Shown here: positions 12,797 to 19,392 of the stretch, one piece after another
How the letters are laid out: every line of letters begins with the position of its first letter
Numbering within the stretch: position 1 is the stretch's first letter
Source: Candidatus Saccharimonadota bacterium
GTDB lineage: Bacteria > Patescibacteriota > Saccharimonadia > Saccharimonadales > UBA4665
DNA: 32,000 bases
Direction of reading: 5' to 3'
Assembly: GCA_016699955.1 (NCBI GenBank)
Contig: CP064993.1
Span: forward strand, 180,001-212,000
Program-made: the position numbers and the translations under genes
The notes under the pieces: generated by a model
Database searches by the model: none
Told to the model about the DNA's origin: nothing
The model's input: the letters and a program-made list of their open reading frames with translations, nothing else

Positions 12797-13363
12797 TTAG
12801 AGACCGTCTTTCAGGCGGCGAGTATGACCGGGGTTATCACGGGCGTAGAGCACCTGATGCAAAATACCCATGACAGCTTTTGCTTGGTCGTAGCTCATGC
12901 CAATGCGGGATACGGTGAGCGGAGGATTATTTGGCCCTGCGGTCTGGGAAAAATTTACAATGACGCCTTGTTTGTTTGAAACTACTTCAACGCTGTCGCT
13001 GTACATTACCCGTGGGTCAAGCATGATCATCATCGCAGCAGTACGCTTCATGTCACCCTGATCACTAGCTGTATGCTCGTGGTCATCTTGTCCATGGTCG
13101 TGATCATGGTCGTACCTTGCATCGTAACCGGCCAGCTCCCAAAGCTCGTCGGCATGATCCTCGCCTATACCAAAATGGCTGATGAGGAGCAGGAGAATGT
13201 CTTCACTTGGGCGATCTTTGCCTCGCTCAATATTTTGCAGTTGATTTTCTTCAATTTCTACAGCGCCCGACACTTCGGCTAAGCTCTCGCGGCGTTGTTC
13301 GCGTAGCTTTCGGAGTCTTGCGCCGAGCGGTCTGTATGGAGTTGAAGTATCTTTATCTGCCAT
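12797..13363 (-). CDS. XRE-family HTH protein with a His/Asp-rich linker and an uncharacterised C-terminal domain
   Basis: The N-terminal LGARLRKLREQRRESLAEVSGAVEIEENQLQNIERGKDRPS is an XRE-type HTH. The linker reads YDHDHDHGQDDHEHT. Confidence 0.75.
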   Translation of the reverse strand: MADKDTSTPYRPLGARLRKLREQRRESLAEVSGAVEIEENQLQNIERGKDRPSEDILLLLISHFGIGEDHADELWELAGYDARYDHDHDHGQDDHEHTASDQGDMKRTAAMMIMLDPRVMYSDSVEVVSNKQGVIVNFSQTAGPNNPPLTVSRIGMSYDQAKAVMGILHQVLYARDNPGHTRRLKDGL

Positions 13364-13458
13364 AGACTACCATTGTACCCCTGTTAACGTGTCATTGCAA
13401 CCCCAACATGTACCTCTTTGGCTACCAAAATACCAGACTACGAGCTATTATACTTGGT

Positions 13459-14490
13459 ATGCTGCGCATAGATGAACACGTATCCCTCGCACAGTATTCC
13501 ACCATGCGTCTTGGCGGCGAAGCGGCGTATCTTGCTGAAGTTCATAGTCGTGACGATCTAAAAGAGGCGTCTGCCTGGGCATCAGAGCGACAGCTCCCCC
13601 TACTCATGATTGGTGGCGGTAGTAACATTGTTTGGCGCGACGAAGGTTTTCCGGGACTTATTTTGGTCAACCGTATGCTAGGCTACGAAACTTACGTGTT
13701 ACTTGATAGCCATTTCGTAACAGTCGGTGCTGGTGAAATATGGGACACGGTTGTCGGCCGTACCGTGGCCGCGGGGCTGACAGGCATAGAAGCACTCAGT
13801 CTTATACCTGGTACCGCAGGAGCTACACCGGTACAAAATGTGGGAGCATACGGCCAAGAAATTGCCCAGACACTTACTAGTGTGGAGGTTTTTGATAGAA
13901 CAACTGGCCAGTTCACTACAGTACCTACCGAAGCGTGTGGCTTTTCCTACCGCCACAGCAAGTTTCAAACCGAATACCGCGACCGCTTTTTTATAACCGC
14001 AATTACCTTGCACCTCATAGCGGGAAACCCATTCCCTCCCTTCTACAGTGCGGTCGAGAAATACTTAGGCGAGCATCCTGTTGATGGTGACGTGACCCCA
14101 CGCGTCATTAGAGATGCCGTCACTGCTATTCGCTCAAGCAAACTACCTGACCCAGCTAGGGTAGCAAACAACGGCTCCTTCTTTGGAAACCCAGTGGTGG
14201 ACAGTCGCAAATTTATGGAACTAGTTGCTGAGTATCCGACCATGCCAAACTGGTCAAATGAGGATGAAAAAATCAAAATTCCGGCGGCCTGGCTGATAGA
14301 GCAAGTGGGATATAAAGATGTACACGACAGCAAAACCGGCATGGCCACCTGGCCAACACAGCCGCTTGTACTCGTCAATGAACATGCCAAATCTACCGCC
14401 GACCTCCTGCGCTTCCGCGACGAAATTGTGTCAGCCGTGCAAACAAAATTCGGCATAACCCTCAACCAAGAACCCGAACTACTCCCATAA
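13459..14490 (+). CDS. murB: UDP-N-acetylenolpyruvoylglucosamine reductase
   Basis: LAQYSTMRLGGEA...LMIGGGSNIV...GAGE.WD..V...GL.G.E.LS.IPGTAGATPVQNVGAYG is the MurB FAD-binding core, with a C-terminal substrate domain. The ORF opens at 13408, but ATG 13459 (MLRIDEH) fits MurB N-termini and sits 7 nt after TATTAT. Confidence 0.85.
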   Translation: MLRIDEHVSLAQYSTMRLGGEAAYLAEVHSRDDLKEASAWASERQLPLLMIGGGSNIVWRDEGFPGLILVNRMLGYETYVLLDSHFVTVGAGEIWDTVVGRTVAAGLTGIEALSLIPGTAGATPVQNVGAYGQEIAQTLTSVEVFDRTTGQFTTVPTEACGFSYRHSKFQTEYRDRFFITAITLHLIAGNPFPPFYSAVEKYLGEHPVDGDVTPRVIRDAVTAIRSSKLPDPARVANNGSFFGNPVVDSRKFMELVAEYPTMPNWSNEDEKIKIPAAWLIEQVGYKDVHDSKTGMATWPTQPLVLVNEHAKSTADLLRFRDEIVSAVQTKFGITLNQEPELLP

Positions 14491-14685
14491 ATAACTTTTC
14501 TACAAAGCTCACCCTTTGGCTTGGACGACTCTGAAGACGGCGGGGAGGTGTTTTCGTCAGTCGAGCTTATGTGGGGCTGGGTTTGGATAAACATGCGTAC
14601 CCCTGTAGGTGAGCAACCAAGCAATACTAGCGGTTTTCCGCCGACAATATGGGCCTCATTATTTTGCTCTTGATCTGCTACGTTA

Positions 14686-15687
14686 TTACAGCTGCGTATC
14701 GGTCTCCTGCGGCAATACTACACCTAATTGATCGAGTGTTTTCGCCTCTTCAGGTATTACAATCTTAAGCGTGTCTGGATAAGTTATGTCGACAGTGGTT
14801 TTTTGCATAAGCGCTTTGGAGAGAACTCTCACGACTTTCTTAGAAGTTTTGTCTATCCAAACCGTCGCTTCCGTGGTAGGCATGTCTCCGGCGTTATAGG
14901 TGTGTTTAAGCCCTAGTTTTTCTTCTGCTTTACGATTGACCTTCGAAAGAGCATCCTTGTTTATCTTAATGTCGTATTTGAAAGCAGATATTTCTCCGAG
15001 ACGCTCAGTTTTAACTTTTTTCTTGTCAAAGGTAAACACCTTTGTTTCTCTGTACATAGTCAGCAACTCGCGCCGAAGCTCTGCCGGATAGTTACCGACA
15101 AGAAATTCACCCTGTGTCTGGTTTACGTTTCCAGCGAAACCATATGGATCGACGAGTGACGCCTCCGCTTCCGAGTTACATTTGAGCCACTTTCCAGCCA
15201 GTGTTTTATACATTGCTTGAATGCTTTCATCCCTTTCAGAGCTGTCTACATGCATAATCTTCCCATATTCGGCGCGTGTACCTGTTGTAATGCTTTCAAT
15301 TTCAGCAATTATTTTTCCGTCTACTTTATACGTGTCGTGCAGCACGGTTTTTGGCTCGGCAGGATTCGAGAAATCTGTCTTAGTATCTGACACTATAACT
15401 GCATAACCTACATCGGTTGTGTAGCGTTGTCCGATGTATTTCGTGGACATATGGTTTTCGAGCGTCTCGTAAAATACCGCTTCTGGGTCAACGACGAGCA
15501 TTTTGCTCGCAAATATACCTCCAGCAACAAGCAAAAATATCAATAGTAGGACAAGCATAATGTATTTTGTCTTCAAGCGCGTTGGTGGTTCTATGGCGGC
15601 CGGCATTGGGGTAGTCGCGGCTTCCATGGTGTATTCGGGCGTAGCCTTAATTTGGATTTCTTTCGAGGATTTAAATAATCTATTCAT
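14686..15687 (-). CDS. hypothetical membrane-anchored extracytoplasmic protein (cargo segment X)
   Basis: 333-aa ORF. About 40 aa of N-terminal tail, one TM segment (YIMLVLLLIFLLVAGGIFA), then a large soluble domain with no motif I recognise. Confidence 0.7.
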   Translation of the reverse strand: MNRLFKSSKEIQIKATPEYTMEAATTPMPAAIEPPTRLKTKYIMLVLLLIFLLVAGGIFASKMLVVDPEAVFYETLENHMSTKYIGQRYTTDVGYAVIVSDTKTDFSNPAEPKTVLHDTYKVDGKIIAEIESITTGTRAEYGKIMHVDSSERDESIQAMYKTLAGKWLKCNSEAEASLVDPYGFAGNVNQTQGEFLVGNYPAELRRELLTMYRETKVFTFDKKKVKTERLGEISAFKYDIKINKDALSKVNRKAEEKLGLKHTYNAGDMPTTEATVWIDKTSKKVVRVLSKALMQKTTVDITYPDTLKIVIPEEAKTLDQLGVVLPQETDTQL

Positions 15688-15881
15688 GGGCTTAGCCTAA
15701 CATGATACGCAACAATTTTGTATCTGTGCACGTGAGCGCGCTCGCGTATGCACTGTAAAAAAAGTATTATCATATACAGAACGATGAGTGTACTGGGCAG
15801 TTCGAAGTACGGCTGCCCGATTAGTATTTCGTTCGTGGAAGGATTATTCGATAAATGTCTGCCATGGAATCTGACATTCGT

Positions 15882-15915
15882 ATGACAGAAAAGTGTGCTG
15901 TTTTTGGCATATTTG
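15882..15915 (+). repeat. exact 34-nt copy of the purF start (partner 17974-18007)
   Basis: ATGACAGAAAAGTGTGCTGTTTTTGGCATATTTG is identical at both sites. The roughly 90 nt upstream is homologous but diverged. Confidence 0.95.
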
Positions 15916-15940
15916 CTGTTACCGGCCGGGCCCCTGTGGT

Positions 15941-15967
15941 CCTCAACCAAGAACCCGAACTACTCCC
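15941..15967 (+). repeat. exact 27-nt copy of the murB 3' end (partner 14460-14486)
   Basis: CCTCAACCAAGAACCCGAACTACTCCC is identical at both sites. It is joined to the purF-head copy by a 25-nt filler, CTGTTACCGGCCGGGCCCCTGTGGT. Confidence 0.95.
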
Positions 15968-16355
15968 GCCACGAGCTTAGTCTTGTCTTAGTCCTTAGTC
16001 GCAAAATGAGGTAAAGCTCTCCCCTGTTATTCTACAATCCCGGACAAATCTGCAGTAACTTAATCTGTTACAGGCCACGCCTGTAGTAGCTGTGGTATTT
16101 AGTGTGGTGATGTCAAGGCTCCAAGTAGTTTTTTATTGCGATTACCAGAATGGTCGGTCAAGATTTTAGTAAGATAGACTTTCCCACCTTAAGGTCTACC
16201 ACGGCCACATTTTTGAAAGATACTAGGGATAACAATGCTCAAAATCCAACTCCAGCGCCGTGATTACCGGACGTGGGTGAAACATTTTCCGTACCACATG
16301 ACAAGTAAGTAAAAAACAAGACAGAATACACAATACAAATGAGAGGGGTTGTGTT

Positions 16356-16862
16356 TTAAGCTGCTACCTTGGCAATATGTGAAGTAGGATGACCCATTGA
16401 ATTAAAAGCGTCTCCTATAACGAGACCGGCATTTGTGTAGTCTCCCTGCTGTATTTCGGCAAGTACTTTATCTCGCTCTTCTGGTGGAAGTGTATCCAAA
16501 TAAAGAACATTTACTGCATGAAGAAAACCATGAGTAATGCCTGCCACCTTAGGGTCAGGCTCGATAGCCGTAACTTTCACTGTAAAGTACGGATTACCCT
16601 TACTGTCTTCTCGTAGGCGGGTTGGATCGCAGTATACATCAACCTTGTCACTAAATTCTGGACTTTTGGCGACTTCAAACAATGCTCTTAGTCTCCTTTC
16701 GTCAACGCCAAATGGTTGAGTAGGTGTTCCTAGTTGGTATATTTTCCTTAGTCTGTCTTGATTCCAAAAAAAAATTTTGGTATCTTCGTCCACGACTAAA
16801 GGAGGAACTCCTTCCCTGTTTGGTCCAGCTTTTTGACGACTCTCTGGGCTACGTTTAAACAT
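16356..16862 (-). CDS. hypothetical protein (cargo segment Y)
   Basis: 168-aa ORF with no recognisable motif. It contains an A9 (coding-strand T9) tract at 16766-16774. Confidence 0.6.
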   Translation of the reverse strand: MFKRSPESRQKAGPNREGVPPLVVDEDTKIFFWNQDRLRKIYQLGTPTQPFGVDERRLRALFEVAKSPEFSDKVDVYCDPTRLREDSKGNPYFTVKVTAIEPDPKVAGITHGFLHAVNVLYLDTLPPEERDKVLAEIQQGDYTNAGLVIGDAFNSMGHPTSHIAKVAA

Positions 16863-16936
16863 ACATGACCTTTCATCTCCATAGTATTAGAAACATAATA
16901 TACTCTCAATCACTAGAATTGTCAAGGTGTTACTGG

Positions 16937-17076
16937 GTAACTGCTCACTGCCTCAAAAACAGAGGTGATAATTGGTCAACATCTTGCCTACGCTAAACTG
17001 CCTTATCTGTTAGCATTTATGCGATTTTACACTTGTGTAATTACTTAACAGATACCAGGAGGGTGTGAGCAGTTAC
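16937..17076. repeat. long-range inverted repeat forming a roughly 150-nt imperfect hairpin in the intergenic region
   Basis: GTAACTGCTCAC (16937-16948) pairs with GTGAGCAGTTAC (17065-17076) and extends by CCTC/GAGG after a 2-nt mismatch. An inner pair is TATCTGTTA (17004-17012) with TAACAGATA (17046-17054). Confidence 0.7.
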
Positions 17077-17149
17077 GTTACTGGCCTGAACCTCGTGGTT
17101 GCCGTATCACCTCTACAGAAAATACATGGCGTAGCGACACGGGCAAAAA

Positions 17150-17731
17150 CTACGCCACATGTACATTACCAAGAACTGTTACGCAGTCTCCGCAAAATCC
17201 TGAAGTTTCTGGCTTCAATAGCATCATCGCTATACCAGCAAGCATTTCTTGTTTGTTATTTGCCGGTCTCATTATGCATGGATTCGCGCAGTGCCCTGCA
17301 AAAGAGCTCAGGCGAGCATAATTGTTAGCATCTCTTCTCACAAGCCCAAAACTATGTCCAAGCTCATGCGTCACTAGTCCTGAAATGGCAGCAGGATTAT
17401 CTGCCAAACGGCATGTCGAAAATATAGCCTTACCCCTAGCAAAGGAAGATTGGCCAAAAAGGTAGTTCATCCCCGGATGACCTAAATCCCTTCCGGTTGC
17501 AACTACCGTCAAACCCATACCGTTCCATGCCGGTAGAGCATCTAAGATACCGGGCGCATCAACTTGACCTGACGGAAGAGTAGATAGGTCACCCTCAAGT
17601 CTTTCGCGGGAAAAAGCAAGTCCTCCAAGACGAGTTAACAGACGCCCTACTGCTTCGATTCCCCAATAGATGGCATCATAATCAGCTGTGGTAATGTACC
17701 TATCATAATAAAGAGTTACGGGCATTGTCAT
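17150..17731 (-). CDS. archaemetzincin-like zinc metallopeptidase (M54-like)
   Basis: 193 aa. HELGHSFGL followed by GHCANPCIM and a C-terminal CGDC. This matches the archaemetzincin pattern HExxHxxG...C-x-x-x-C-x-M...CxxC, except that a 17-aa insert sits between the Gly and the first Cys. Confidence 0.7.
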   Translation of the reverse strand: MTMPVTLYYDRYITTADYDAIYWGIEAVGRLLTRLGGLAFSRERLEGDLSTLPSGQVDAPGILDALPAWNGMGLTVVATGRDLGHPGMNYLFGQSSFARGKAIFSTCRLADNPAAISGLVTHELGHSFGLVRRDANNYARLSSFAGHCANPCIMRPANNKQEMLAGIAMMLLKPETSGFCGDCVTVLGNVHVA

Positions 17732-17973
17732 AATTATTATATTATTTTATCATTTTTGTAATATATGCGGATTGTTGCGTCCTACATTCCATCCCGAAAT
17801 GCAACAACCTTAAGAATCTAGGCGGTATTGTGCTTGCACAAAAAGGCATAAACAAGTACTATTTTTATAAGGTAAGGGAAATATTACGGGCAGTGAAGTA
17901 AAGAACTGTCCGCTTAGTGATTCAATCGGGAGATAGCATCACGTTCATGATCGAAATGCAAGATGATAAACAA

Positions 17974-19392
17974 ATGACAGAAAAGTGTGCTGTTTTTGGC
18001 ATATTTGGAGCGAGCCCAGAAGTAGAAGCGGCTCGTTTGTCTTTTTATGGGCTGTGTGCGCTGCAGCACCGCGGACAGGAAAGTTCAGGGATTTCAACTT
18101 CGGATGGTAAAAGCCTTTACTTACACGCTGACTATGGCCTTGTGACAACCGTTTACCGCCAGCAAGACCTAGATAAACTACCTGGGCATATTGCTATCGG
18201 TCACAACCGTTACTCCACCTCTGGCGGCACAGATGACTGTTTTAACCAACCGTTTCTTGACAACAAGCACGGCTTCGCTTTTGCCCATAACGGCAACTTG
18301 CCCGACACATCACAGCTCGAAGAGTTCTTAAAAAGTCACCACATCTCATCCAGCAGGCTAAATGATTCCGGCATGATGGCAGCGGCCATTGCCGCACAGC
18401 TTGGGACAGGGCTGAGCTTGCCCGACGCTATCGCTGCCTGTTATCCGCTCTTTACAGGTGTATTTTCGGCGGTGGCGATGAACCAAGATACACTTGTCGC
18501 CTTCCGCGACCCACACGGCATTCGGCCACTGGCTTTGGGTAAAATGCAGGACGGCACTTATGTCATCGCCAGTGAAACCTGCGCACTCGATACCATTGGC
18601 GCGAAGTTTGAGCGCGAAATCGACCCCGGTGAAATGGTCGTTATTTCATCAGATGGTATTCGGTCCACGCAAGTCATCCCAGGTGAACAAAAGCTCGATA
18701 TTTTTGAGTTTGTATACTTTGCCCGGCCCGACAGTATCATCCTCGGTCAAAGTGTCAACAAAGTACGCATGAATTTTGGACGGCTTATGGCACGCGAACG
18801 TTTAGTGAGCGCCGATGTGGTTATTCCGGTGCCTGATTCCTCCATTCCCGCAGCACTCGGCTACGCTGAAGCCAGCGGTATTCCTTTTGAAATGAACCTT
18901 ATAAAGAACCGCTACATCCACCGCACGTTCATCCGCCCCACAGCCGAGCTGCGTGAGCACGACCTTAAAATGAAATTAAACCCACTAGTCGAAGCAATAG
19001 CGGGTCGCCGCGTTGTTCTCGTAGATGACTCAATCGTCCGGGGTACTACCATGCGAAAAACGGTACAGATGCTACGCGATGCAGGCGCAACTGAAGTTCA
19101 CCTCATGATTAGTTCGCCACCAGTTCTCTACCCTGACTATTACGGCATAAACACCCCGTCACAAAAGGAACTTATTGCTTCCGAAAAGACCGTGCCACAA
19201 ATTCGTCAGTACGTTGGCGCAGACTCATTGTATTTTCTCAGCTACGATGGCATGGTTAAAGCCACAGGCTTACCCGAACATGTGTTTTCCGCCTCGTGCT
19301 TTACCGGAATATACCCGACCCCTATCGGAAAACGCGCAGCTGAAATCACTCATGTTAACATTACGGACCGTTTAGTCCCGGAATCAAAATGA
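17974..19392 (+). CDS. purF: amidophosphoribosyltransferase
   Basis: MTEKCAVFGIFG (N-terminal nucleophile Cys after a short propeptide), ALQHRGQESSGI, GHNRYSTSG and a PRTase motif VVLVDDSIVRGTT. The track ORF opens at GTG 17917. ATG 17974 is preferred because a conserved leader hairpin overlaps the upstream part. Confidence 0.9.
   Translation: MTEKCAVFGIFGASPEVEAARLSFYGLCALQHRGQESSGISTSDGKSLYLHADYGLVTTVYRQQDLDKLPGHIAIGHNRYSTSGGTDDCFNQPFLDNKHGFAFAHNGNLPDTSQLEEFLKSHHISSSRLNDSGMMAAAIAAQLGTGLSLPDAIAACYPLFTGVFSAVAMNQDTLVAFRDPHGIRPLALGKMQDGTYVIASETCALDTIGAKFEREIDPGEMVVISSDGIRSTQVIPGEQKLDIFEFVYFARPDSIILGQSVNKVRMNFGRLMARERLVSADVVIPVPDSSIPAALGYAEASGIPFEMNLIKNRYIHRTFIRPTAELREHDLKMKLNPLVEAIAGRRVVLVDDSIVRGTTMRKTVQMLRDAGATEVHLMISSPPVLYPDYYGINTPSQKELIASEKTVPQIRQYVGADSLYFLSYDGMVKATGLPEHVFSASCFTGIYPTPIGKRAAEITHVNITDRLVPESK

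What the first reader, a model, noticed from the sequence alone, without database searches (positions are those of the whole stretch)
15968..17916. Cargo segment Y pairs an unknown 168-aa protein with an archaemetzincin-like protease, and about 40% of it is non-coding
Two co-oriented minus-strand genes sit here: an M54/archaemetzincin-like protease (HELGHSFGL ... GHCANPCIM ... CGDC, with a 17-aa insert in the metal-site region) and a 168-aa protein with no recognisable motif. They are embedded in unusually long non-coding stretches for a compact genome: 388 nt (15968-16355), 287 nt (16863-17149) and 185 nt (17732-17916). The segment is bounded by the murB-tail' and purF-head repeats. That placement marks it as accessory. 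A protease paired with an unknown partner and structured non-coding DNA in a variable hot spot is the layout of many small conflict or defence modules. Nothing in the sequence establishes such a function.
Basis: partly seen in the sequence, partly recalled or inferred. Interest (0 to 1): 0.6.

Follow-up and report, generated by a model that had tools for sequence, protein, structure and literature searches.

The report
Mosaic accessory islet with promoter-hugging MITE
This 2-kb stretch of a Saccharibacteria genome is imported accessory DNA that carries a rare archaemetzincin-like protease, an orphan gene and a small transposon sitting just upstream of the orphan gene's promoter; nothing shows it to be a defence module.

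Summary
Both minus-strand ORFs, the three long gaps (44% non-coding) and the bounding murB-tail'/purF-head repeats are at the stated coordinates.

- **Protease:** it is archaemetzincin-like, with a conserved 15-residue insertion before the third zinc-binding His. It belongs to a very rare Patescibacteria family of 9 clusters. In other genomes the gene is solitary and lies among housekeeping genes, usually between obg and exoI.
- **168-aa ORF:** it looks coding and has its own strong promoter. It has no homologue among about 15 billion proteins.
- **The pair:** it is never seen together elsewhere, and neither protein matches a known defence family.
- **"Structured" non-coding DNA:** this is a 140-bp MITE. 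It has perfect 12-bp terminal inverted repeats (GTAACTGCTCAC) and an 8-bp target duplication. The ends resemble those of ISBst12-group IS66 elements. It accounts for half of the 287-nt gap.
- **Other gaps:** the 388-nt gap has no ORF, fold or relative.
- **Hot spot:** the murB–purF gap is truly variable, from about 0.1 kb to 3.4 kb in relatives. The repeat scars fit one-sided recombination that stacked Y onto an older cargo X.
- **By-product:** about 27% of 108 such MITEs lie exactly 11 bp upstream of a TTGACA −35 box.

Interest is moderate, and mostly because of the MITE.

The parts
14460..14486 (+). Resident murB 3' end (LNQEPELLP), reference copy of the murB-tail repeat
   Evidence: D2, 27/27 identical to 15941-15967; murB ORF 13408-14490
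15811..15915 (+). Orphaned resident purF 5' region. The native upstream sequence is 15811-15863 and purF-head' is 15864-15915 (MESDIRMTEKCAVFGIF).
   Evidence: D1; 15811-15915 is 71% identical to the purF upstream and start region of relative L016
15916..15940 (.). 25-nt filler at the junction between purF-head' and murB-tail'. It matches neither gene and resembles 16065-16081.
   Evidence: D1, 82% over 17 nt
15941..15967 (+). murB-tail', the left boundary of segment Y
15855..15980 (+). Chimeric 41-aa ORF, with purF-head' fused in frame to murB-tail'. It is a by-product of the junction.
15968..16355 (.). 388-nt ORF-free spacer downstream of the 168-aa gene. No ORF exceeds 37 aa within the gap, there is no excess folding and no relative was found. 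It remains unexplained.
   Evidence: (z +1.2 and +1.1)
16356..16862 (-). 168-aa orphan gene (IPL85_01015). It has a coding-like codon pattern and is predicted to be a cytoplasmic alpha/beta protein with a disordered N-terminus.
   Evidence: no true homologue; coding score 0.18 per codon; GC1/2/3 of 0.59/0.40/0.30; AF2 pLDDT 57, pTM 0.50; no fold match
16897..16925 (-). Sigma-70-type promoter of the 168-aa gene: TTGACA, 17 nt, TATATT (11/12)
   Evidence: Its position relative to the MITE matches the rule seen in 29 other flanks.
16929..17084 (.). MITE of 140 bp at 16937-17076. It has perfect 12-bp terminal inverted repeats GTAACTGCTCAC/GTGAGCAGTTAC and is flanked by the 8-bp target-site duplication GTTACTGG (16929-16936 and 17077-17084).
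   Evidence: I5; z -3.8/-4.0 on both strands; the TIR resembles ISDge4 of the ISBst12 group, IS66 family
17150..17731 (-). Archaemetzincin-like Zn protease (IPL85_01020). The likely start is the ATG at 17725. Conserved residues are H122, E123, H126, a 15-aa insertion, then H147, C148, C152, M154, C180 and C183.
17732..17916 (.). AT-rich (34% G+C) divergent promoter region between the protease gene and purF
17956..18007 (+). purF-head of the working purF gene, the right boundary of segment Y

Best explanation
Segment Y is not one functional system. It is a mosaic piece of imported accessory DNA, stacked behind an older cargo (X) in a variable hot spot between the core genes murB and purF of a Saccharimonadales genome.

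1. **How it arrived (inferred).** DNA from another strain, with the layout murB-tail'-Y-purF, was added by one-sided recombination. Homology in purF served as the anchor. The other end was joined illegitimately 52 nt into the resident purF, through a 25-nt filler. This left an orphaned resident purF head followed by a foreign murB tail. A Campbell-type insertion of a circularised fragment would give the same product.
2. **What it carries (shown).**
   - An intact archaemetzincin-like zinc protease of a rare Patescibacteria family. In other genomes this gene is solitary and sits among housekeeping genes, usually between obg and exoI.
   - A lineage-specific orphan gene of 168 aa with its own sigma-70 promoter.
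   - The two genes are independent transcription units.
3. **The non-coding DNA.**
   - Half of the 287-nt gap is a 140-bp MITE with an 8-bp target duplication. Its ends resemble those of ISBst12-group IS66 elements. It inserted 11 bp upstream of the -35 box of the orphan gene's promoter.
   - The rest of that gap is an ordinary spacer of 139 nt that holds the promoter.
   - The 185-nt gap is a divergent promoter region.
   - The 388-nt gap is featureless imported DNA, probably decayed sequence plus the 3' end of the orphan transcript (inferred).
For: **Hot spot.** The distance from murB to purF is about 0.1 kb in L014, L015 and L016, about 0.2 kb in L019, and 1.2-2.3 kb with unrelated cargo in L011, L013, L021, L022 and L027. 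Homologues of the X protein lie next to murB in L021 and L022, so X is the older cargo.

**Scars.**
- The murB-tail' and purF-head' repeats are present.
- The sequence left of purF-head' matches the native purF upstream region of L016.
- The two purF heads differ as alleles do: MESDIR against MQDDKQ, followed by 33 identical nt.
- L011 independently carries a 142-nt murB-tail duplication between two cargos.

**Foreign composition.** GC3 is 0.30 and 0.36 against 0.40-0.59 (mostly about 0.5) in the other genes scored. G+C is 0.34-0.47.

**Protease.**
- The family profile hits the archaemetzincin structures 3zvs and 4axq at E 1e-10 and 2x7m at 1.5e-7.
- The top Foldseek matches are the same proteins.
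- NCBIfam archmetzin scores E 2e-9.
- All metal ligands are invariant across the 7 aligned sequences.
- Only 9 clusters exist among 5.8 billion.
- The neighbourhoods are obg-protease-exoI, or frr...tsf.

**Orphan gene.** Only the protein itself is found in both searches, plus two spurious hits to tandem-repeat proteins. The codon statistics look coding. The promoter matches 11 of 12 positions.

**MITE.**
- 116 metagenome stretches carry elements with the same ends.
- 68 of 106 copies have their own 8-bp flanking duplication.
- The window copy has perfect terminal repeats and a perfect duplication.
- ISDge4 (ISBst12 group, IS66 family) has the terminal repeat GTAACTGCTCAGCA and an 8-bp duplication (PMC12898284).

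**No other signal.** There is no Rfam hit even at E<=5. The two proteins of Y and the 333-aa protein of cargo X have no PADLOC hit, and the two Y proteins have no PHROGs hit; X gave only two insignificant PHROGs matches at E about 0.1. There is no phage or plasmid DNA match.
Against: - The recombination route is inferred from scars only. No donor with a murB-Y-purF layout was found.
- The 388-nt gap is unexplained. A novel RNA or a decayed gene cannot be excluded without transcripts or relatives.
- A functional link between the two genes cannot be excluded for an orphan.
- A close relative carries a PADLOC candidate-defence ATPase (PDC-S01, E 6.5e-146) in the same hot spot. The hot spot can therefore host conflict-type genes.
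- Only the 32-kb window of this genome could be read, so three things are untested: the state of its obg-exoI junction, the presence of a cognate transposase, and other MITE copies.
Confidence: 0.68

Rival explanations
1. The protease and the 168-aa protein form a two-gene conflict module (defence, toxin-antitoxin, or protease plus substrate or inhibitor), and the surrounding non-coding DNA holds its regulatory RNAs.
For: - The two genes are co-oriented neighbours in a variable hot spot.
- Both have the same low GC3, so they probably arrived together.
- The same hot spot in relative L011 holds an AAA_14/DUF4143 ATPase that matches the PADLOC candidate PDC-S01 at E 6.5e-146. In L027 it holds a NUDIX protein that weakly matches PDC-S07.
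Against: - There is no PADLOC or PHROGs hit for either protein.
- The 168-aa protein has no homologue, so no conserved pairing exists.
- Every protease homologue whose neighbourhood could be read is solitary among housekeeping genes.
- The genes are 287 nt apart, with a transposon and a separate strong promoter between them.
- No RNA family was found and there is no excess folding outside the MITE.
Confidence: 0.1
2. X or Y is a site-specifically integrated mobile element. Its attachment site is the 27-nt murB tail or the purF head, and the direct repeats are attL and attR.
For: Identical 27-nt direct repeats flank X, and repeats that are 85% identical (33 nt exact) flank Y. L011 also has a duplicated murB tail.
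Against: - There is no integrase, recombinase or transposase in X or Y.
- The two repeat pairs interlock, which one site-specific event does not produce.
- The murB-tail repeat in L011 is 142 nt at 93% identity, which is the length of homologous recombination tracts rather than of a core att site.
- A 25-nt filler at the junction is typical of illegitimate joining.
Confidence: 0.1
3. The long gaps hold undescribed structured RNA genes or riboswitch-like leaders. Examples would be an sRNA in 15968-16355 or a purF leader in 17732-17916.
For: - The gaps are long for this genome.
- The plus strand of 17767-17916, upstream of purF, folds somewhat better than shuffles, with z -2.3.
- A plus-strand promoter-like site lies at 17725-17753.
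Against: - No Rfam family matches at E<=5.
- The 388-nt gap folds worse than shuffled controls on both strands.
- No similar DNA was found in 90 Patescibacteria loci fetched by then (80 of them murB loci of relatives) or in phage and plasmid collections, so covariation cannot be tested.
- Relatives with a 0.1-kb gap manage without such a purF leader.
Confidence: 0.1
4. The tandem X/Y arrangement is an assembly artefact. It would join two strain haplotypes, murB-X-purF and murB-Y-purF.
For: The genome is a metagenome-assembled genome. X and Y behave as alternative cargos of one hot spot.
Against: - The junction keeps only 52 nt of purF and 27 nt of murB, joined by 25 nt of unrelated filler. That is not what haplotype mis-joins look like.
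- An independent MAG from another study (L011) shows an analogous internal murB-tail duplication.
Confidence: 0.05

Closest known systems
Archaemetzincins (AmzA; MEROPS M54; PDB 2x7m, 3zvs, 4axq)
   Same: - The N-terminal alpha/beta metzincin fold is shared.
- The HExxHxxG motif is present.
- A His-Cys follows, then C-x3-C-x-M (Met-turn region) and a distal CxxC. These correspond to the catalytic zinc site plus the Cys4 structural site.
- The size is similar, about 190 aa.
- Sequence and fold searches both rank these proteins first.
   Different: - A conserved 15-residue insertion (VRRDANNYARLSSFA in the window protein) separates HExxHxxGL from the third His.
- About 25 residues, rather than about 17, lie between the Met and the CxxC.
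- Scores fall below the Pfam and NCBIfam family cut-offs.
- The hosts are Patescibacteria, not archaea or vertebrates.
- Only 9 sequence clusters are known.
ISBst12-group insertion sequences of the IS66 family (for example ISDge4 of Deinococcus geothermalis) and the MITEs derived from insertion sequences
   Same: - The terminal repeat starts GTAACTGCTCA, which is 11 of 12 identical to the ISDge4 end GTAACTGCTCAGCA.
- The target duplication is 8 bp (PMC12898284; PMC11946415).
- The element is short, non-coding and multi-copy.
   Different: - It is 140 bp long and has no transposase.
- Interiors are unrelated between sub-families: about 50 clusters among 118 copies.
- About 27% of copies lie at a fixed 11-bp distance upstream of a -35 hexamer. 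I found no report of this for IS66 elements.
- No autonomous parent element was recovered here.
Variable integration hot spots between conserved core genes (defence-island-like loci)
   Same: Two conserved core genes, murB and purF, flank cargo that differs between close relatives. Cargo size ranges from 0 to 3.4 kb. One relative carries a PADLOC candidate-defence gene there.
   Different: - No integrase or other mobility gene is present.
- The cargo is tiny, one to three genes.
- Most cargo proteins have no family at all.
- The cargo in this window has no defence signature.
Homology-facilitated illegitimate recombination in naturally transformable bacteria (from my own knowledge of the Acinetobacter and pneumococcus literature; not looked up here)
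   Same: There is one homologous anchor (purF), one illegitimate joint with filler, and duplication of short flanking segments. This matches the scars at 15864-15967.
   Different: The mechanism was not demonstrated here. It is inferred from a single end product, and competence of this organism was not examined.

Membership tests
Archaemetzincin / peptidase M54 | Zinc-binding consensus HExxHxxGx3Cx4CxMx17CxxC (as I recall it from the archaemetzincin literature) | tested here: inconclusive
   HELGHSFG, C148-x3-C152-x-M154 and C180-x2-C183 are present and invariant in 7 family members. However, 15 extra residues precede the His-Cys, and the Met-to-CxxC spacing is about 25 rather than 17.
Archaemetzincin / peptidase M54 | Scores above the curated family thresholds (Pfam PF07998, NCBIfam NF033823) | tested here: not met
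   PF07998 scores 12.3 bits against a cut-off of 24.4. NF033823 scores 37.4 bits against 145, at E 2.3e-9.
Archaemetzincin / peptidase M54 | Significant sequence-profile and fold similarity to solved AmzA structures | tested here: met
   The profile hits 3zvs and 4axq at E about 1e-10 and 2x7m at 1.5e-7. The top four Foldseek hits are AmzA structures, with probability 1.0 and TM about 0.5. The C-terminal half of the model has low confidence.
Known or candidate anti-phage defence systems (PADLOC-DB v2) | At least one protein matches a defence-system model | tested here: not met
   There are no hits at E<=1 for the 168-aa protein, the protease or the X protein.
Conserved two-gene module | Homologues of both genes are adjacent in other genomes | tested here: not met
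   The 168-aa protein has no homologue. The neighbourhoods of four protease homologues were read (P0005, P0007, P0011, P0012, 13 loci): none has such a partner gene. Next to the protease gene there is only a 41-aa ORF in some loci and an unannotated 228-aa ORF in L092/L093.
MITE (miniature inverted-repeat transposable element) | Short non-coding element with terminal inverted repeats | tested here: met
   The element is 140 bp with perfect 12-bp terminal repeats.
MITE (miniature inverted-repeat transposable element) | Flanking target-site duplication that differs from copy to copy | tested here: met
   The window copy is flanked by GTTACTGG on both sides. Of 106 copies, 68 have their own 8-bp duplication with at most 1 mismatch. 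The chance of that is about 4e-4 per copy.
MITE (miniature inverted-repeat transposable element) | Many copies at unrelated loci | tested here: met
   116 metagenome stretches were found against fewer than 1 expected, giving 108 distinct copies in contigs of 26-66% G+C.
IS66 family, ISBst12 group (as the mobilising element) | Terminal repeat beginning GTAA, and an 8-bp duplication | tested here: met
   GTAACTGCTCAC compares with the ISDge4 end GTAACTGCTCAGCA, and both make an 8-bp duplication. IS66 ends start GTAAGCG and make 8-bp duplications.
IS66 family, ISBst12 group (as the mobilising element) | A cognate DDE transposase in the same genome, or a full-length element with the same ends | not testable with these tools
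   Only 32 kb of the genome is available. No full-length element was found in the fetched loci.
Rfam structured RNA families | Covariance-model match | tested here: not met
   No match in 14400-18100 at E<=5. Only tRNAs match elsewhere in the window.

The most novel reading that the evidence does not exclude
The hairpin between the two genes belongs to a widespread family of MITEs whose ends resemble those of ISBst12-group IS66 elements. Their transposition machinery appears to choose its target by the promoter. The 8-bp target lies exactly 3 bp upstream of a sigma-70 -35 hexamer, at roughly -46 to -39, which is the UP-element zone. It does so in either orientation and can use the same site repeatedly. 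That would be promoter-register targeting by a bacterial DDE transposon, possibly through contact with promoter-bound RNA polymerase. It would be comparable in spirit to Ty3 integration at Pol III start sites. I found no report of it.
Probability: 0.45. Interest if true: 0.65.

Novelty: new variant of a known kind. Interest (0 to 1): 0.4.

Why it matters
- **For the finding itself.** It removes a tempting "defence module" reading. It shows instead how tiny, reduced Saccharibacteria genomes gain genes. Short cargos are stacked between core genes by one-sided recombination that leaves readable scars, and a rare zinc protease has moved from a conserved obg-linked position into such a hot spot.
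- **The protease family.** It is a split-motif archaemetzincin found only in Patescibacteria. A 15-residue loop is inserted into the zinc site of a protease family whose function is still unknown (my own knowledge, not looked up here).
- **The wider lead.** MITEs with these ends sit at a fixed register upstream of -35 boxes in many unrelated bacteria. If the targeting is mechanistic, it would have three consequences. It is a new target-selection rule for IS66-type elements. It gives a free, sequence-only marker of real promoters in uncultured organisms. It is also a possible tool for promoter-proximal insertion.

Tried and rejected
- **RNA families.** Rfam found nothing in the segment at gathering threshold or at E<=5.
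- **Folding of the gaps.** The 388-nt gap folds worse than shuffles. The whole 287-nt gap is only marginal. Only the MITE itself stands out.
- **Homologues of the 168-aa protein.**
  - The word-index search found only the protein itself.
  - The exhaustive HMMER search found it plus two hits (E 1.9e-21 and 1.4e-4) to tandem-repeat proteins. I rejected these because a single repeat gives only 27 bits over 38 residues.
  - Pfam, PHROGs, PADLOC and NCBIfam gave nothing.
  - Viral contigs gave nothing.
  - The single-sequence AlphaFold model had no significant match in PDB or BFVD.
- **Pseudogene remnants.** I looked for remnants of obg, exoI or relatives' cargo genes in the gaps and found none.
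- **Phage or plasmid origin.** No DNA or protein match was found.
- **Autonomous parent of the MITE.** Long-range pairs of terminal repeats in the fetched loci enclose ordinary genes, not transposases.
- **MITE copies near murB or the protease gene in other genomes.** None was found in 1.2 Mb.
- **Literature.** No paper contains the terminal-repeat sequence in a relevant context, and I found none on promoter targeting by IS66 or ISBst12 elements.
- **X and Y as diverged duplicates.** Rejected, because they share no similarity.
Full report
**Source and observation**

The window comes from a Candidatus Saccharibacteria metagenome-assembled genome. The contig is 1,211,496 bp, and the two ORFs are annotated IPL85_01015 and IPL85_01020.

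- A 168-aa ORF at 16356-16862(-) and a 193-aa ORF at 17150-17731(-).
- Gaps of 388, 287 and 185 nt, which make 44% of the 1949 nt.
- A murB-tail copy at 15941-15967 that is 27/27 identical to 14460-14486.
- A purF-head copy at 15864-15915 that is 85% identical to 17956-18007, with the last 33 nt identical.

In a rough gene map of the window most gaps are shorter than 120 nt. The three Y gaps are among the roughly seven longest.

Y is also compositionally foreign. Its G+C is 0.34-0.47 against about 0.50. The GC3 of its two genes is 0.30 and 0.36, against 0.40-0.59 (mostly 0.45-0.53) in 22 other genes.

**The hot spot and the scars**

I fetched 80 murB loci from other Saccharimonadales genomes. 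Nine of them also contain purF downstream of murB. The spacing in those nine varies:
- About 0.1 kb in L014, L015 and L016, whose MurB is 82-84% identical to the window's.
- About 0.2 kb in L019.
- 1.2-2.3 kb in L011, L013, L021, L022 and L027.

The cargo differs from genome to genome:
- L011 has an AAA_14/DUF4143 ATPase plus a 110-aa ORF.
- L013 has a membrane protein plus an XRE-type HTH protein.
- L021 has a homologue of the window's X protein alone.
- L022 has that homologue plus a 202-aa membrane protein.
- L027 has two unknown proteins plus a NUDIX protein.

None of these loci contains the protease or the 168-aa protein. The "accessory" call is therefore correct, and X is the older resident cargo.

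The repeats are best read as recombination scars.
- The DNA just left of purF-head' (15811-15863) still resembles the native purF upstream region of L016. The sequence X + purF-head' is therefore the old junction.
- After 52 nt of purF comes 25 nt that match neither gene. Then come a murB tail with a different ending (ELLPPRA* instead of ELLP*), Y, and a second purF head.
- The propeptide codons of that second head differ as alleles do: MQDDKQ against MESDIR.

This is the product expected if DNA of another strain, with the layout murB-tail'-Y-purF, was added with homology on the purF side only and an illegitimate joint on the other side. A circularised fragment inserted by a single crossover would give the same product. 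This is inference, because no donor was found.

An independent MAG, L011, has an analogous 142-nt murB-tail duplication (93% identical) between its two cargos. This argues against an assembly artefact and for a recurrent process.

**The protease**

Only eight other sequence clusters among 5.8 billion are related to it, at 31-53% identity. All come from metagenomic sources; two carry a source name, one of them "Patescibacteria group bacterium".

- **Conserved residues.** The alignment shows invariant H122, E123, H126, H147, C148, C152, M154, C180 and C183.
- **Closest structures.** A profile of the family hits the archaemetzincin structures 3zvs and 4axq at E about 1e-10 and 2x7m at 1.5e-7. That alignment places a 15-residue insertion between HExxHxxGL and the His-Cys.
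- **Fold.** The AlphaFold model is confident only in its N-terminal half. It still finds the same archaemetzincins first.
- **Family cut-offs.** The curated family models score below their cut-offs.

The protein is therefore archaemetzincin-like in sequence and fold. It is a split-motif variant rather than a member by the family thresholds.

In other genomes the gene sits directly between obg and exoI, in the conserved run ruvX-yceG-LysM/CHAP-obg-protease-exoI. This holds for P0007 and P0011; for P0005 obg is upstream and the downstream gene was not identified. In one distant case it sits between frr and tsf. It never has a 168-aa-like neighbour.

No second copy from this genome appeared in the searches. 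Its only copy is therefore most likely the one in the hot spot. No remnant of obg or exoI surrounds it.

**The 168-aa ORF**

It behaves like a real gene.
- Its codon-position pattern is typical of coding sequence: GC1/2/3 of 0.59/0.40/0.30, with a frame score of 0.18 per codon. Known genes score 0.14-0.35, and spurious ORFs score about 0 or below.
- It has an SD-like AAAGG upstream of the start.
- An 11-of-12 sigma-70 promoter (TTGACA, 17 nt, TATATT) lies at 16925-16897.

It has no homologue. The two searches found only the protein itself, plus two tandem-repeat proteins whose scores are summed from many weak 35-residue matches.

It matches no family in Pfam, PHROGs, PADLOC or NCBIfam. A single-sequence model (pLDDT 57, pTM 0.50; a disordered N-terminus followed by an alpha/beta core) has no significant fold match. 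Its function cannot be assigned.

**The non-coding DNA**

No Rfam family matches, even at E<=5.

*The 388-nt gap.* It has no ORF above 37 aa and folds worse than shuffled controls on both strands. It has no relative in the fetched loci, in phages or in plasmids. It remains unexplained. I take it to be decayed imported sequence plus the 3' end of the orphan transcript.

*The 185-nt gap.* It is an AT-rich divergent promoter region.

*The 287-nt gap.* This one held the surprise.
- Its inverted repeat is the end pair of a 140-bp element at 16937-17076. The element has perfect 12-bp terminal repeats GTAACTGCTCAC/GTGAGCAGTTAC and an 8-bp direct duplication GTTACTGG on each side.
- A pattern made of the two ends found 116 stretches in metagenome contigs, where fewer than one is expected.
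- The interiors fall into about 50 unrelated clusters.
- Of 106 copies, 68 have their own 8-bp flanking duplication.

This is a MITE. Its ends and its 8-bp duplication match the ISBst12 group of the IS66 family: ISDge4 has the end GTAACTGCTCAGCA and an 8-bp repeat (PMC12898284; PMC11946415).

A sub-family 72-76% identical to the window copy occurs in six other contigs, and at least one of them looks like Saccharimonadales.

Without the MITE and one copy of the duplication, the gap would be an ordinary 139-nt spacer that holds the promoter. The "structured non-coding DNA" is thus a selfish insertion, not part of a module.

**A by-product worth following**

- **Fixed distance.** In 30 of 209 outward flanks (29 of 108 copies) a 5-of-6 or better match to TTGACA starts exactly 11 nt from the element's end. 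That is the 8-bp duplication plus 3 nt. Every other offset has 0-7 such matches, about 1 on average.
- **Real promoters.** Of these 30, 22 also have a near-consensus TATAAT 16-18 nt further on. Of 28 testable flanks, 22 are followed within 150 nt by an outward-facing ORF, and one by what looks like a tRNA gene.
- **Orientation and reuse.** The members of one sub-family (L100, L110, L113, L146) carry the promoter at either end of the element. In L147 two copies in tandem share the same 8-bp duplication next to a promoter.

The window copy follows the rule, which independently supports the promoter of the 168-aa gene.

Either the transposition machinery selects its target at a fixed register upstream of -35 boxes, or selection keeps only such insertions. 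The exact spacing favours the first. I found no report of this.

**Verdict on the interpretation**

The descriptive parts are right. The functional suggestion is not supported.
- There is no defence signature.
- There is no conserved pairing.
- The genes are separate transcription units split by a transposon.
- There is no RNA element.

One fact leans the other way. The same hot spot in L011 carries an ATPase that matches the PADLOC candidate PDC-S01 at E 6.5e-146, so such loci can collect conflict-type genes. I therefore leave about 10% for a conflict role of the Y genes.

**Overall**

Y is a small mosaic of imported DNA. It contains a rare split-motif archaemetzincin, an orphan gene and a MITE. 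The finding is of moderate interest, and the promoter-register pattern of the MITEs is its most novel lead.

Noticed in passing
window 16929-17084; loci L094-L209: MITEs with ends GTAACTGCTCAC/GTGAGCAGTTAC and 8-bp target duplications are widespread in metagenomes, in contigs of 26-66% G+C. About 27% of copies lie exactly 11 bp upstream of a TTGACA -35 hexamer that has a good -10 and a downstream gene. Tandem copies reuse the same 8-bp site (L147). This suggests promoter-register targeting by an ISBst12/IS66-type transposase.
   Followed up: partly
L011:1687-1828 and L011:3189-3330: A close relative has its own 142-nt murB-tail duplication (93% identical). It separates two cargos in the murB-purF gap: an AAA_14/DUF4143 ATPase that matches the PADLOC candidate PDC-S01 at E 6.5e-146, and a 110-aa ORF. 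The same stacking process seems to recur.
   Followed up: partly
window 15855-15980 (+): The orphaned purF head is fused in frame to the foreign murB tail, giving a 41-aa chimeric ORF. It sits behind what looks like the original purF upstream region (15811-15863, similar to L016). If that promoter is still active, it would also drive transcription antisense to the 168-aa gene and the protease gene.
   Followed up: no
window 15916-15940 and 16065-16081: The 25-nt filler at the recombination joint resembles a sequence 149 nt further into Y (14 of 17 identical, and similar beyond that). It may be a templated insertion, or it may be chance.
   Followed up: no
window 17725-17745 (-): The protease gene has no Shine-Dalgarno sequence, and an exact TATAAT lies 4-10 nt upstream of its two candidate ATGs. 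Homologues align from the second ATG (17725). The mRNA may be leaderless.
   Followed up: no
window 12797-13363 (-) and loci L011-L090: A 188-aa protein with an XRE-type HTH domain and a weak DUF3467 match is divergently adjacent to murB in most of the 80 Saccharimonadales loci, and lies within a few kb in the rest. This is a conserved gene pair of unknown meaning.
   Followed up: no
window 14686-15687 (-); L021:1311-2066; L022:7054-8241: The cargo X protein is 333 aa, has an N-terminal membrane anchor and matches no family. It has homologues (49-55% identical) at the same position next to murB in two relatives, so it is the older occupant of the hot spot.
   Followed up: partly
P0009, P0010: The exhaustive HMMER search returned E 1.9e-21 for a 2099-aa tandem-repeat protein only because 17 weak repeat matches were summed. 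A single repeat gives 27 bits. This is a caution for reading such tables.
   Followed up: yes
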